From: the human T2T-CHM13v2.0 reference genome, Homo sapiens
Length of the DNA: 64,000 nucleotides
Strand: one strand, 5' to 3'
Assembly: GCF_009914755.1 (NCBI RefSeq)
Contig: NC_060928.1
Positions 1 to 6,704 of the stretch are shown piece by piece; the first letter of the stretch is position 1, and each line of letters begins with the position of its first letter. A program made the position numbers and the translations under genes. The notes beneath the pieces were generated by a model. It had not been told where the DNA came from. It worked only from the letters and a program-made list of their open reading frames with translations, and made no database searches.

Positions 1-332
1 TTTCGATATATTGTTCATATTTACTGTTTCCTTCTGAGGAACATTTAGATTGTTTCAGATTTTTAATTAAAATCACTACAATAAATAACCTGTGGCATAT
101 GTATACGTTGTGTTTGTATATACACACACACTCCTTTAACAGTATATATGTAGGCTAAAGTCCGTAAGGAAAATGCTAATTGCAGACTTGAACTTTTCAA
201 GAACAGTACCAAATTATCTGCTTAAAAGGCTGTATCATTTCATTCTTGCCAACAGTAGTACTTGGTTCAAAGAAGGGTTCATTGCTGTAAGAACACAATA
301 CATTGAATTGCCAGGGAGAGGAATGAGCTTAC

Positions 333-922
<590 letters not shown>

Positions 923-1108
923 CTTGAGATAATCATACAATAAGTTAGGATTATCAGTAGATATAAAAAGATCAATGATAGTTTCTAAATTGAGTAGGCA
1001 AGTAAGTCTTCACTTGCCTTCAATTTTAGGGTAATTCATATCTTGTTTCATTACACAAAAAGTTTGATTCAAACTCTCAGTAACTGAGATAACTTAAAAA
1101 TAAAATAC

Positions 1109-1267
1109 CTGTGCTTTTAAGGCATCATTTGAGTGTTCTAAGTCCTTTTGCATATTTGATATTTCATTTGTTTTCTCTGAAACAATCCCTCTTAGTTTAT
1201 CAATAGTTTCTTGGTGCTCCTTCAGATGCATGTGAACAATTTTTAGCTCCTCTTGTTTTTCTAGGTC
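1109..1267 (-). CDS. CENPE: CENPE exon 34 (159 nt; S7)
   Basis: [25 protein letters not shown]...DALKAQ; aag| and |gtattt. Confidence 0.94.
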
Positions 1268-1576
1268 CTTTATCAATAGAAAAATAAAAATAATACATTG
1301 AGAGTAGTACCATCCACATGCTATAGAAAGGTATAGGGCAGGAGGTAAAAATCTTCCACCCTCTTCTGAGGCCTCCTAGTTCTCACCCTCTAAGCTACTT
1401 TTAGATGTCAATACATTCTAGATACACTATTCCTGAACTTACCCTGTTCCCTAACAGGACACTTCACCCTTCAAATCAGCACTATAGCTCTACCACATTT
1501 TTTATTTGTGGCATAGAATTCCATGACGTGAATGTGCTGCACTTATTTAACCAGTCCCTTACCAATGGATGGTTAG

Positions 1577-2096
<520 letters not shown>

Positions 2097-2191
2097 TGGA
2101 CCAATTTTATACTCCCACCAACCCTATGGCAGATTTTTCTCTTAGGACTCAATGTCATAGTTACTAGAGGTGTAGAGAGATGGTAACTCAC

Positions 2192-2479
2192 TCTAGTTAT
2201 AGTTTCTCTAAGGTTTTCCTTGAGCTGGTCTCTCTCTACTTTGAGAGTCTCCTCCACACTCCTAAGGTCATCTCTTTCTTTTGTTACAGATCTCATTTCT
2301 TCAAGGTTTTCATGTAGTATCTGAGTCAACCTTATATTCTCCGTTTCTATGTTTTCCAGGTTTAACTTCTGGGTCTCAAATTGCTCCTTCAAGTGTTCTA
2401 TTTCACACATTTTCTCCTGAGTCTCATTGACAGCTGTCATCTTAAGAAACTGATATTCTTTTTCTTGAGATTCTTTCAT
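2192..2479 (-). CDS. CENPE: CENPE exon 33 (288 nt; L7)
   Basis: MKESQEKEYQFL...ERDQLKENLRETITR; cag| and |gtgagt. Confidence 0.94.
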
Positions 2480-2656
2480 CTGAGAAAATTATAAAGTAAG
2501 TTACAACATAGGCAGAATTTTTTTAGGAAAAGGAAGAACTGTTCCTAAAATAAGGCAATCATTTTTACATTGTAATCTAATGTATGTAGTACTTTCTTTC
2601 ATAAGGGATATGAGTAACAATAATTAGATGTCATTTTCCAATTTAACAAGTCCCAC

Positions 2657-2805
2657 TTTTTCCTGTAATTCACCATCAGAATTTCCTAAATCCCAATGAA
2701 TATTTGCTACTTGAGCTGTCTTCTCTGAAATATTCTGTCTACTAACAGTTTACTGGTACTCAGTTGAATATAAGCAGTTTTTGATTCCTCTTTTATTTCC
2801 GGTCC
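2657..2805 (-). pseudogene. Fossil short-type CENPE stalk exon (between exons 32 and 33)
   Basis: GPEIKEESKTAYIQL/EYQ*TV/SEKTAQVANIHWDLGNSDGELQEK; acceptor ttcctctaatcataaag nearly identical to exon 31's; donor gtggga; stop and indels. Confidence 0.85.
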
Positions 2806-2910
2806 CTTTATGATTAGAGGAAAATTAATAAAACTTAACATGAACACCGTCATTATCACCTTAACACTATTTCTGTATCCAAAAAAAAAAAAAATAAGAT
2901 GGGAACTTAC

Positions 2911-3195
2911 TTTAGCTACAATTTCTTTAGTGTTTTCTTTCAGTTGGTCTCTCTCTATCTGAAGGGCCTCCTGTACTCTTTTCATTTCCTCTTTTTCCTT
3001 AATCATAATTTGTATTTCTTCTTGACTTTCTTGAAGTCTGTTGGTCAACTCGAGCATCTTACTTTCTATACTTTGTAGTGCTGAATCCTTGGCTTTGCGA
3101 TGCTCCTTGAATTGTTTCAGTTCATTCACTTTTTCCTGAACCTCACTAATTTGTTTTATATTAAATTGTTCCTCTTTCTCATAAATCTCTTGGAT
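2911..3195 (-). CDS. CENPE: CENPE exon 32 (285 nt; L6)
   Basis: IQEIYEKEEQF...ERDQLKENTKEIVAK; aag| and |gtaagt. Confidence 0.94.
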
Positions 3196-3383
3196 CTTAA
3201 ACATAATTATAAAATAAGTTAATAGTCATAAAAATATGTAAACACACACACACACATACACAACTTAAGAGGAAAAGGTTGCTTCCCAAAACAATTAAGC
3301 ATGCCAAATAGTAGTCTTCATAATTCAGTTAGCTACTCCAAACCCACCCATTTCCTCCCACTGTTTCTTCATCCCCAATTTAC

Positions 3384-3542
3384 CTTGTTCTGTAATTTAT
3401 CATTGATTGCTTCTAACTGCTTTTGAATGGTTGATATTTCAGTTTCCTTCTCTGAAAGATTCACTCTTAACTCATTAATAGTTTCCTCTTGTTCTTTCAG
3501 GCAACAATGAGCAACTTTAAGTTCCTCTTCAGTTTCCAGGTG
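3384..3542 (-). CDS. CENPE: CENPE exon 31 (159 nt; S5)
   Basis: HLETEEELKVAHCCLKEQEETINEL...DKLQNK; aag| and |gtaaat. Confidence 0.94.
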
Positions 3543-3689
3543 CTTTATTATTAGAGGAAATTCCAATAAATTTATAGAAACATTATAACTATTTTGTTGT
3601 AATTAACTCCCCTTTCCAAATATTTAGGGTTTATAATAATATTTGGTTACAAAATATTTTTTAAAAACATGGTGAAAGATGAAACCTAC

Positions 3690-3968
3690 TTTAGCTACAA
3701 TTTCTTTTATGTTTTCTTTGAGCTGGTCACTTTCAGATTGAAGAACTTCTTGCAGCCTCTGTAGGTCATCTTTCTCCTTAGCTACAGATTTCATTTCATC
3801 ATGACTTTCTTGAAGTCTTTTGGACAATCCGAGCATTTCTATTTCTATCCTTAGTAGTGCTGAATCTTTGGGTTTGAATTGCTCCATCTCACTCACGATT
3901 TTGGTAGTTTCATTGTCTTTTTCTTTCATATTTAAGGACTGTTCTTGTTTGCTTTGAGACTCCTGGAT
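3690..3968 (-). CDS. CENPE: CENPE exon 30 (279 nt; L5)
   Basis: IQESQSKQEQSL...DQLKENIKEIVAK; aag| and |gtaggt. Confidence 0.94.
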
Positions 3969-4944
3969 CTTAAGAGAATCATAAAACAGTACAGTTGATA
4001 TCCAGAGATATTGTGTTTTAGGGGAAAATAAATCAGGATGCTTTCTAAAACAATTAAGGCAGGATTCAGTGCCTCATTTACAGAGCAATCTCTCCATTCT
4101 CCCACTCTTCCATTATTCAGGCATTTAATGCTTTTTAAAAATTGAGGTCTCACTGTGTTGTCAGCATCTTATTCGAGGCTGGAGACAAAATGATGAGACT
4201 TACAGGATCTCTCTCTTTTTGAGACTTATACTTCAAGGACAAAGATAGATATGATGTTGAATCTTACCAAATAGAGATGCTGGCTTCTCCTACGGCCCAA
4301 GTGTCAAATATAATCTATTGTGAATGATAGGAAGGGATTCCTAGAGGAGAAAGCTTTAACTGAGATCTGAAGGATAAGAGCATTAGTTAGGCAAAAAGGA
4401 GTATGGAGGTACTGCAGGTAGAGAGACCTGAGAATCTGAAAGCCATGAGCTGCGGAAGAGAGTTGCTGGAGAACAAAGAATAGGAAGAAGAATGAATTGA
4501 AATAAGACCGGCAAGATCTGCACCTAGGGCCTCATAGGCCACATAAAGGATCCTGGTCTTTATTTAAAAAGTAGCAATAAGATATTAAAAGAATGTAAGA
4601 AAGGATAACTTAGGCTTAGTATAGAAACTGGATTAGAGAAGTCTAAGAATGAGTGTGGGAAGACCAGTTAGGAGACTACTGCAGATAGCCAGGGAAAGAA
4701 ATGATGTTGACTTGGATTAGGGTGGTGGCAGTGTGGAGAGAAAAGCAGGATGACTTTTAAAATACACACTCAAATCAATAAGATTTGGTGACTGGATTAC
4801 AGAATAAGCAGAGAAGGAGGCATATTAGTAGGGATAGCTCCCAGATTTCTGACTAAAACAATGAGAAAGCACAGTAGTGCTTTATGAAACATTAAAGGAA
4901 CAGGTTTAAAAAAGAAAATAAAACAATCTCATATTTGGTTTCAC

Positions 4945-5086
4945 CCTTTCTTGTAATTTAGAATTATTTTTTCTAAATTATTTTTTGAATATTTAAGAAA
5001 ACAGTTCTTTTCTCTGAAACATCTTCTCTCTGTTTCAATACCTTCTTGGTATTCAAGAGCAATTTTTAATTGTTCTGTTTCTAGTC
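4945..5086 (-). pseudogene. Fossil short-type CENPE stalk exon (between exons 29 and 30)
   Basis: ETEQLKIALEYQEGIE/REDVSEKRTVFLNIQK/LEKNNSKLQER|gtgaaa; acceptor AG reads AT; several frameshifts. Confidence 0.8.
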
Positions 5087-5216
5087 ATTTCATGATTAAG
5101 AGACATTAAAAAAACTGGTAACATAATTATAATACAAACATTATAACTATAACACAAACACAAGCCTTGATTCTTATAAGACACTTGTTAAAATGGGAGG
5201 AAAATACGAAACTTAC

Positions 5217-5873
<657 letters not shown>

Positions 5874-6704
5874 TAAAGGGAAAAGATCAGGATACTTTTC
5901 ACAGCAAGGAAAGTCATCTTGAACCCTCAGGCCTACCTTGGATCACAAACTGCTCATTATTCATTTTCCCTCAATTCCTGCTAAAGCTATTCATGACTTT
6001 TCTGGGTCACATTCTGTCATACTTTTCTTTCTTTGTAGCTTAGACCCAAAGTGAACCAATTATACTTTGCTAGCAGTCTGTTTCATACTTATTTCTCCAC
6101 TAGTTTCCAAGCTATAAGAGAAAAACCATAGCTGAGCAAACTATATCCCAATAAATGTATGATCTCCATTTTCAGATGGGCTCCAATGCTATGTCTCAAT
6201 TTTTCTATGTGTATAGATTGATTTCTCTTTCCATGATAAATTAGTGGTACCATGTAATTTTGCGTATTTCTGCATTTACCATATTGGAATTAAGGGATTT
6301 TCTTTCTAGTTTATAATGGGGGGAAAGAACAATGTCTTATTTATATCTACAGTCTCAATGTCTGGCATGGAGTAGGCTTTTAATACAGGTTGGCCCAGTA
6401 ATCCCAATGTTTCACTTTCTCCATAGCATTTACCACTATTTAATGTTTTCTTGTTCATTTGATTGCTTATTTATCAGCTACTTTCTTTCACTACAAATGG
6501 ATCAGAGGGATTTTAGGGGTTTTGTCCACCTTGTTCTCATTGCATTTCTATAACCTAGGAGTGTGCCTGCCACATTAAACACTCGACAAATACTTACCCA
6601 GTCAATTAATGAACCACATCCTAGCTACTTCTTACTGCTTATCTTTCCTTCAAAGGAGAAAGGAAGGAAGAAGTGACAAAGGATGAAAGGAATAAAAGAC
6701 ATAC

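What the first reader, a model, noticed from the sequence alone, without database searches (positions are those of the whole stretch)
2657..2805. Fossil short exon between exons 32 and 33 with both splice sites retained
Seen: it starts 105 nt after the exon 32 donor. Acceptor ttcctctaatcataaag differs by one base from exon 31's ttcctctaataataaag. The sequence reads GPEIKEESKTAYIQL-, EYQ*TV, then SEKTAQVANIHWDLGNSDGELQEK|gtggga, matching ...[24 protein letters not shown] of exon 28. It is 149 nt rather than 159, so inclusion would frameshift: a candidate cryptic or poison exon, and a place where deep-intronic variants could matter.
Basis: partly seen in the sequence, partly recalled or inferred. 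Interest (0 to 1): 0.7.

Follow-up and report, generated by a model that had tools for sequence, protein, structure and literature searches.

The report
Dead CENPE exon, alive in whales
A 149-base stretch inside an intron of the human mitotic motor gene CENPE is the broken remnant of a coding exon that whales, camels and bats still use, so it is an ordinary but clean case of exon death that slightly shortened the human protein.

Summary
Window 2657-2805 (gene strand is minus) is a full-length relative of the CENPE short coiled-coil exons. It is 70-73% identical to exons 28, 31 and 34, which are 73-75% identical to each other (z 9-23 against shuffles; nhmmer E 4.9e-18).

It is the human orthologue of a 51-codon exon ("S32b") annotated between the exon-32 and exon-33 equivalents in cetaceans, camelids and bats, and partly in a jaguar. 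An ML tree groups the human copy with three live S32b exons (support 99/90).

Measured against the live 153-nt exon, the human copy has one 4-nt deletion and one in-frame TAA. The acceptor matches that of functional exon 31 except for one base. The donor AAA|GTGGGA is weaker by U1 pairing than all 34 real donors in the window.

Inclusion would give a TAG after 32 codons. None of the primate or rodent proteins examined contains the exon. Use as a poison exon is untested.

The same array holds two more fossils, one of them a long exon split by a SINE. This is a new member of a known kind, of moderate interest.

The parts
2911..3195 (-). CENPE exon 32, a long (L) repeat exon of 285 nt in phase 0. 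Its donor AAA|gtaagt lies 105 nt upstream of the fossil.
   Evidence: Annotation table
2806..2825 (-). Acceptor region of the fossil exon (attttcctctaatcataaag|). It differs by one base in 17 from the acceptor of functional exon 31.
   Evidence: PWM score is 6.36 against 4.92 for exon 31 scored with the same matrix. It is higher than the leave-one-out score of 15 of 33 real acceptors.
2657..2805 (-). Dead short exon (psi-S32b), 149 nt. It is the orthologue of the live 153-nt exon of cetaceans, camelids and bats.
2761..2805 (-). First 15 codons, still in the frame set by exon 32 (GPEIKEESKTAYIQL).
2759..2760 (-). The two bases AG left of codon 17. The 4-nt deletion (codon 16 plus the first base of codon 17) lies between 2760 and 2761. 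This is the frameshifting lesion.
   Evidence: comparison with live peptides ...LLKEYQET...
2750..2752 (-). TAA in the ancestral reading frame, where the live exons have E (YQETI becomes YQ*TV).
2707..2709 (-). TAG met in the frame delivered by exon 32 if the fossil were spliced in. This is the premature stop after 32 codons.
2651..2656 (-). Degraded donor gtggga, preceded by A at -1 (2657). It is the weakest U1 pairing among the donors in the window.
2668..2676 (-). Internal donor-like site ATG|GTGAAT (last exon base 2674). It scores better than the ancestral donor. With the 2805 acceptor it would give a 132-nt exon that still holds the TAG.
2192..2479 (-). CENPE exon 33, a long (L) repeat exon, 177 nt downstream of the fossil.
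   Evidence: Annotation table

Best explanation
Window 2657-2805 is a pseudogenised exon of CENPE.

The CENP-E stalk is encoded by a tandem array of exon pairs: a long exon of about 95 codons followed by a short exon of 51-53 codons. The short exon that belongs after exon 32 (S32b) is still a coding exon in Laurasiatherian mammals.

On the lineage to humans it was disabled by a 4-nt deletion, an E-to-stop change, and probably a G-to-A change at its last base that ruined the donor. The spliceosome now goes straight from exon 32 to exon 33, and the human protein lacks these 51 residues.

Shown here: the homology, the position, the live orthologues, the lesions, the weak donor, and the absence from the primate and rodent proteins examined.

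Inferred: that the exon was functional in the common ancestor of humans and Laurasiatheria, the order of the lesions, and that the relic is now skipped nearly always. If it were included it would give a premature stop and the mRNA would be expected to be degraded by NMD.
For: Homology:
- 70-73% nucleotide identity to exons 28, 31 and 34, z 9-23.
- nhmmer E 4.9e-18 over the whole exon length.

Position:
- It lies 105 nt after a long exon. The introns from a long exon to the next short exon in the other units are 118-155 nt (for their lengths).
- In the array L30 S31 L32 _ L33 S34 it fills the one empty short-exon slot.

Live orthologues:
- 47 of the 180 proteins then stored match a pattern for a 51-aa exon, giving 15 distinct peptides.
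- In the seven proteins read or mapped (blue whale, dolphin, camel, horseshoe bat and three further bats) it lies between the L32 and L33 equivalents.
- A jaguar protein has the last 35 residues.
- An unnamed genomic read-through ORF, P0258, has the full 51 codons open.

Orthology:
- The human conceptual peptide is 58-60% identical to S32b (28-29 of 48 positions), 45-56% to S28 and at most 48% to the other paralogues.
- ML tree of 37 short-exon peptides: human psi plus 3 S32b form a clade with support 99/90.
- The two-codon gap relative to the paralogues is shared.

Lesions and splice sites:
- One 4-nt deletion and one TAA; the frame is otherwise open.
- Donor: 4 of 9 consensus matches and U1 duplex -3.8 kcal/mol, against -4.2 to -11.9 for the 34 real donors.

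Absence:
- Only 3 of the 125 proteins have an S32b-specific domain (whale, dolphin, jaguar). 94 show exon 32 joined directly to exon 33.
Against: - No genomic DNA of other mammals could be read, so the lesions are not placed on a tree. Ancestral function rests on parsimony.
- The live exons come mostly from automatic gene models. I saw no RNA evidence for them.
- Live S32b was found only in Laurasiatheria. Rodents (Arvicanthis, rat, P0005) and the unnamed P0002 lack it.
- No Afrotherian, Xenarthran or named marsupial protein was examined.
- The word-based search scored only 73 candidates and can miss diverged copies.
- The human copy's branch (0.21) is no longer than those of some live exons, so the sequence alone does not show relaxed constraint.
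- The identity margin over S28 is small (60% against 56%).
Confidence: 0.88

Rival explanations
1. It is a working poison exon. Human cells splice it in at a regulated level, and the resulting premature stop sends part of the CENPE mRNA to NMD, tuning the dose of the motor.
For: - Inclusion gives a TAG after 32 codons, upstream of many later junctions.
- The acceptor is as good as exon 31's.
- The body is rich in GAA/GAG, as the live paralogues are.
- Both flanking introns (105 and 177 nt) are of workable size.
- An internal donor at 2674 scores 7.74.
- A preprint reports an SR-protein-sensitive CENPE cassette exon but does not say which one (PMC13228269, passages read).
Against: - The ancestral donor is weaker by U1 pairing than all 34 real donors. 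5.9% of 2909 intronic GT sites score as high on the PWM.
- No truncated human protein ending in the fossil's peptide appeared among proteins of 168-2000 aa that contain exon 32.
- 0 of 180 stored proteins carry its peptides.
- CENPE does not occur in the one held supplement of a catalogue of conserved cryptic poison exons (PMC11632617).
- No paper was found linking CENPE with a cryptic or poison exon of its own.
Confidence: 0.08
2. It is not an old exon. It is a recent partial copy or gene-conversion tract from exon 28 or exon 31 that landed in intron 32 and was never functional.
For: - Its closest human paralogue is exon 28, while its acceptor is nearly identical to exon 31's. That mixed signal could suggest conversion.
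Against: - It groups with the live S32b exons of whale, camel and bat, not with any human paralogue (support 99/90).
- It shares their two-codon gap.
- It is only 70-73% identical to the human paralogues, so it is not a recent copy.
Confidence: 0.02
3. A shortened in-frame part of the fossil is still a rare coding alternative exon in humans, as the 35-residue form in the jaguar model might suggest. An example would be the 78 nt that read NISEKTAQVANIHWDLGNSDGELQEK.
For: - The frame from 2749 to 2657 is open.
- The jaguar protein carries only the last 35 residues of the exon.
Against: - No acceptor candidate scoring above 4 lies inside the fossil.
- The donor is weak.
- 0 of 180 stored proteins, including the human isoforms listed, contain SEKTAQVANI, ANIHWDL or NSDGELQEK.
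Confidence: 0.02

Closest known systems
The live exon S32b of Laurasiatherian CENP-E (for example in blue whale, dolphin, camel and horseshoe bat proteins P0092, P0104, P0146, P0149)
   Same: - Same place between the exon-32 and exon-33 equivalents.
- Same 51-codon layout, with the two-codon gap relative to the other short exons.
- 58-60% identity, and one clade in the tree.
   Different: The human copy has a 4-nt deletion, a TAA and a degraded donor, and it is absent from every human and primate protein examined.
Human CENPE short repeat exons 28, 31 and 34 (156-159 nt)
   Same: - Same family of short coiled-coil exons, phase 0, following a long exon after a short intron.
- 70-73% nucleotide identity.
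- The acceptor is almost identical to exon 31's.
   Different: Those exons are 52-53 codons, open, with donors matching 7 of 9 consensus positions. The fossil is 149 nt, closed, and its donor matches 4 of 9.
Pseudoexons left by decay of tandemly duplicated exons, such as the duplicated Ig exons of B7-H3/CD276 that differ between human and mouse (PMC3172298; search listing and start of abstract only)
   Same: A duplicated exon module is kept in some mammalian lineages and not in others.
   Different: This is a different gene and protein type. I did not read that paper's text, so the likeness is a lead and not a test.
Poison exons and pathogenic deep-intronic pseudoexons (reviewed in PMC8819188 and PMC11632617; listings and abstracts seen, one supplement searched)
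   Same: Intronic, flanked by AG and GT, and would bring in a premature stop.
   Different: Those are defined by observed inclusion. Here none has been observed, and the origin is a former coding exon rather than random intron sequence or a repeat.

Membership tests
Dead (pseudogenised) exon with a live orthologue | Sequence homology to functional exons beyond chance | tested here: met
   z 9-23 against dinucleotide shuffles; nhmmer E 4.9e-18
Dead (pseudogenised) exon with a live orthologue | Same position in the gene as a coding exon of other species | tested here: met
   A 51-aa exon lies between the L32 and L33 equivalents in the whale, dolphin, camel and bat proteins read or mapped. Synteny was judged from protein order only, not from genomic DNA.
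Dead (pseudogenised) exon with a live orthologue | Groups with the orthologous exon rather than with paralogues | tested here: met
   Clade support 99/90 in a tree of 37 peptides over 53 columns. Best identities are to S32b.
Dead (pseudogenised) exon with a live orthologue | Disabling lesions in the reading frame | tested here: met
   A 4-nt deletion at 2760/2761 and a TAA at 2750-2752
Dead (pseudogenised) exon with a live orthologue | Not part of the mature mRNA in this species | tested here: inconclusive
   Not in NM_001813.3 (annotation table). 0 of 180 stored proteins carry its peptides. No RNA data were available.
Poison exon (AS-NMD cassette) | Inclusion introduces a premature stop upstream of later exon junctions | tested here: met
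   TAG at 2707-2709 in the frame from exon 32
Poison exon (AS-NMD cassette) | Usable splice sites on both sides | tested here: inconclusive
   The acceptor is comparable with exon 31's. The donor is the weakest by U1 pairing and matches 4 of 9 consensus positions. The PWM comes from only 34 sites, and no MaxEnt model was available.
Poison exon (AS-NMD cassette) | Observed inclusion that rises when NMD is blocked | not testable with these tools
   No junction or RNA-seq resource was available. Literature searches found nothing.
Poison exon (AS-NMD cassette) | Conservation above the neutral level | not testable with these tools
   No primate or other mammalian genomic DNA could be fetched.
CENP-E long/short exon-pair repeat array | A short exon of 51-53 codons follows a long exon of about 95 codons after a short intron | tested here: met
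   It lies 105 nt after exon 32. Array maps; profile hits.

The most novel reading that the evidence does not exclude
The CENP-E stalk changes length between mammals by the birth and death of single exons in one exon-pair array.

The human lineage lost about 145 residues in two separate events: this short exon by a 4-nt deletion, and the long exon after exon 34 by a SINE insertion. By my arithmetic, at about 0.15 nm per residue of coiled coil, that is roughly 20 nm of stalk.

The relic at 2657-2805 remains one base change away from a competent splice donor. It could therefore act as a latent poison exon, and a rare A>G at 2657 would reduce CENP-E output in carriers.
Probability: 0.3. Interest if true: 0.55.

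Novelty: new member of a known kind. Interest (0 to 1): 0.4.

Why it matters
CENP-E is an essential mitotic kinesin. Its long stalk affects motor activity and kinetochore attachment (PMC4116301, title and abstract seen in the listing).

This relic, together with the two other fossils in the window, suggests that stalk length is not fixed in mammals. In the proteins mapped here, whale, dolphin and camel CENP-E carry two exons that are dead in humans.

For human genetics, the relic marks a specific place in intron 32 where one substitution could create a strong donor and a nonsense-bearing exon. That is worth knowing when reading deep-intronic variants in unsolved CENPE-related microcephaly. The disease link is recalled, not checked here.

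For annotation, it explains a conserved-looking block in an intron without needing a new function.

Tried and rejected
- Earlier findings of this scan were not open.
- Rfam found nothing in window 1-6000.
- Searches for CENPE with pseudoexon, cryptic exon or poison exon gave no report on this element.
  - The four papers holding both CENPE and "cryptic exon" are prostate-cancer papers or an abstract book, to judge from titles and abstract starts; I did not read them.
  - PMC13228269 mentions only an unnamed CENPE cassette exon.
  - The one held supplement of PMC11632617 has no CENPE entry.
- A search for CENP-E with exon duplication, coiled-coil and tandem listed no paper whose title or abstract start describes the exon-pair array (listing only).
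- The 50%-identity representative library collapsed the mammals into a few unnamed proteins.
  - It added one full-length open S32b in a carnivore-like genomic read-through ORF (P0258) and one weak partial match (P0316).
  - It gave no named non-Laurasiatherian case.
- Dating the death from the sequence alone was considered and dropped. With only two lesions, and a branch no longer than those of some live exons, no date can be given.
- Chance similarity was rejected.
- A recent copy of exon 28 or 31 was rejected.
- Homology between the introns upstream of the short exons is limited to about 25 nt at the acceptor, so it gave no further dating signal.
- No structure prediction or complex prediction was run; neither would bear on the question.

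Full report
**What is there**

CENPE runs on the minus strand. Between exon 32 (2911-3195) and exon 33 (2192-2479) lies a 431-nt intron. Its middle, 2657-2805, begins after ...ttcctctaatcataaag and ends before gtggga.

The 34 annotated exons in the window give 5304 coding bases with no stop.

The block is 149 nt. It reads GPEIKEESKTAYIQL in the frame handed over by exon 32, then changes frame, passes a TAA, and reads TVSRQNISEKTAQVANIHWDLGNSDGELQEK up to the GT.

**Is it more than chance?**

Global alignment to the short exons 28, 31 and 34 gives 106/146, 104/146 and 104/148 identical bases. The scores are 23, 9 and 15 standard deviations above 300 dinucleotide shuffles. The more distant short exons 24 and 26, and the unrelated 159-nt exon 13, score at shuffle level.

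Exons 28, 31 and 34 are themselves only 73-75% identical to each other. The candidate is therefore about as close to them as they are to one another.

A nucleotide profile built from exons 28, 31 and 34 alone finds the candidate end to end (profile positions 4-156) at E = 4.9e-18. The alignment has two gaps, of 4 and 6 nt.

**The array it belongs to**

The same profile search, and one with a profile of the long exons, show that this part of CENPE is a tandem array of exon pairs. Each pair is a long exon (L, 273-291 nt) and a short exon (S, 156-159 nt).

In gene order the human array reads L23 S24 (25) S26 L27 S28 L29 L30 S31 L32 L33 S34 S35 L36 S37 L38. The candidate fills the empty short slot after L32.

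Two more relics turned up.
- A more decayed short exon lies at 4945-5087, after L29 (E = 1.1e-6). Its acceptor AG is now AA.
- A long exon lies at 333-922, after S34 (E = 1e-38). It is split by a repeat of about 300 nt.

**Relatives elsewhere**

A search with exon 32 returned rodent and unnamed proteins of up to 2000 residues, in which the exon-32 and exon-33 equivalents are joined directly.

A search for longer proteins returned 642 hits, of which the best 120 were listed. Most were primates, plus blue whale, dolphin and jaguar.
- In the whale and the dolphin, a 51-residue segment sits between the two long exons: GQKIKEELKATYILLK.YQETINTRNSSEKT.QGANIQRDLEISD.ELQAK.
- In the jaguar, only the last 35 residues are present.

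A search with that whale segment alone (57 hits from 73 candidates) found it in many cetaceans, in camels and vicuna, and in bats of several genera.

I checked camel, Rhinolophus, Phyllostomus, Myotis and Pteronotus by eye and by profile mapping. The segment lies between the L32 and L33 equivalents in each.

In all, 47 of the 180 stored proteins match the pattern for this exon, giving 15 distinct peptides, every one 51 residues long. I call this exon S32b.

**Orthology**

I read the human block with X at the frameshift and at the stop.
- It is 58-60% identical to the S32b of bat, whale and camel (28-29 of 48 positions).
- It is 45-56% identical to the S28 exons of five species.
- It is at most 48% identical to the other short exons.

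A maximum-likelihood tree of 37 short-exon peptides from human, whale, camel, bat and a rodent puts the human block with the three S32b exons (ultrafast bootstrap 99, SH-aLRT 90). That group joins S28 (96/91). The alignment has only 53 columns, so deeper forks are open, but this one is not.

tblastn of four live S32b peptides against the window finds the block in two frames: 35 residues at 57-60% identity, and, for two of the four peptides, a further 15-16 residues at 60-62%.

Only 4 nt have been lost in the human copy.

**The lesions**

Against the 51-codon live exon, the human copy keeps 15 codons. It then lacks codon 16 and the first base of codon 17, between 2761 and 2760. Two codons further on it has TAA where the live exons have E (2750-2752). 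After that it is open to the GT.

If it were spliced in, the frame from exon 32 would run into TAG at 2707-2709 after 32 codons. Many exon junctions follow that stop, so by the usual rule (general knowledge) the mRNA would be a target of NMD.

**Splice sites**

I built small position matrices from the 34 donors and 33 acceptors in this window. No MaxEnt model was available.

The acceptor scores 6.36. That is above the leave-one-out score of 15 of 33 real acceptors, and above exon 31 scored with the same matrix (4.92). 4.9% of 3160 intronic AG sites do as well.

The donor AAA|GTGGGA scores 5.86, above 6 of 34 real donors, and 5.9% of 2909 intronic GT sites do as well. It matches only 4 of 9 consensus positions, while every real donor matches at least 5. 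Its predicted duplex with the U1 5' end is -3.8 kcal/mol, weaker than all 34 real donors (-4.2 to -11.9).

The weak point is the A at -1. Changing it to G in silico gives -8.8 kcal/mol, stronger than 26 of 34 real donors, and a matrix score of 8.58.

The read-through ORF P0258, from an unnamed carnivore-like genome, continues after the exon with V-G-L, as the human sequence does. The intronic part of the donor may therefore be old, with the loss of the final G as a human-lineage lesion. This is inference; I could not see the DNA of any other species.

An internal GT at 2674 (ATG|GTGAAT, score 7.74, -5.4 kcal/mol) is a better donor than the ancestral one. It would give a 132-nt exon that still contains the TAG.

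**Who lacks it**

Of the 125 proteins, only the whale, the dolphin and the jaguar have an S32b-specific domain. 94 show the exon-32 end joined directly to the exon-33 start. 28 did not fit my junction pattern and were not resolved that way.

The human, Plecturocebus, Aotus, Arvicanthis, rat, P0005, P0002 and P0181 maps all show L32 next to L33.

No peptide of the human relic occurs in any of the 180 proteins then stored.

The representative library added no named case outside Laurasiatheria. One unnamed protein, 48% identical to human, has a perfectly alternating L-S array.

I examined no Afrotherian, Xenarthran or named marsupial protein. No cow, pig, horse or dog protein appeared among the hits, and that search is limited to proteins sharing 5-residue words with the query. 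The exon may therefore have been lost or skipped several times.

**Reading**

The simplest account is that S32b was a working exon in the common ancestor of humans and Laurasiatheria and died on the way to primates. Rodents lost it in the same event or in another one. The rival readings are set out above with their odds.

Regulated use as a poison exon cannot be excluded without RNA data. It has no support here, and the donor argues against more than trace use.

**What is in print**

I found no description of this relic, or of the exon-pair array, in the searches. A paper on the stalk (PMC4116301, listing and abstract start only) reports that shortening it impairs the motor's activity and attachment. 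That gives the length changes some functional interest.

**Verdict**

This is a real, well-preserved dead exon with live orthologues. It is a new example of a known phenomenon. It is of moderate interest for the evolution of the CENP-E stalk and as a marked spot for deep-intronic variant reading.

Noticed in passing
window 333-922, minus strand (intron 34 of CENPE): A dead long repeat exon. The acceptor ctcaag|ATCCAAG, the donor GCTAAA|gtaagc and all 94 codons are intact (IQELQEKEHQLL / [12 protein letters not shown]...REIEAK). The exon is split by an antisense SINE of about 300 nt, masked at 596-899, with a target-site duplication TCAACTTCTT. I take it for an Alu from its sequence; that is recalled, not from a tool. 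The exon is live at this position in whale, dolphin, camel, jaguar, bats, rodents and P0002, and is absent from every primate protein mapped.
   Followed up: partly
window 4945-5087, minus strand (intron 29 of CENPE): A second, more decayed short-exon fossil after long exon 29 (nhmmer E 1.1e-6). It has several indels, and the acceptor AG has changed to AA. None of the proteins mapped has a short exon at this place.
   Followed up: partly
proteins P0097, P0098, P0107 (human and orang-utan predicted isoforms): These isoforms skip exon 34 (window 1109-1267), joining exon 33 directly to exon 35. A live short exon of the same array is therefore predicted to be optional.
   Followed up: no
proteins P0003, P0004 (Arvicanthis, rat): The rodent proteins lack the equivalent of human long exon 30 (window 3690-3968) and go from the exon-29 equivalent straight to the exon-31 equivalent. 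This is another lineage difference in the array.
   Followed up: no
window 2860-2872, minus strand: A strong acceptor-like site (T12 GGATACAG|, score 10.4) lies 13 nt before a donor-like AAG|GTGATA (score 6.43), inside the 105-nt intron upstream of the fossil. It probably means nothing, but it is the best acceptor candidate in intron 32.
   Followed up: no
protein P0182 (unnamed representative, 48% identical to human CENP-E): It has seven uninterrupted long-short pairs followed by a final long exon, which may be the ancestral layout of the stalk.
   Followed up: no
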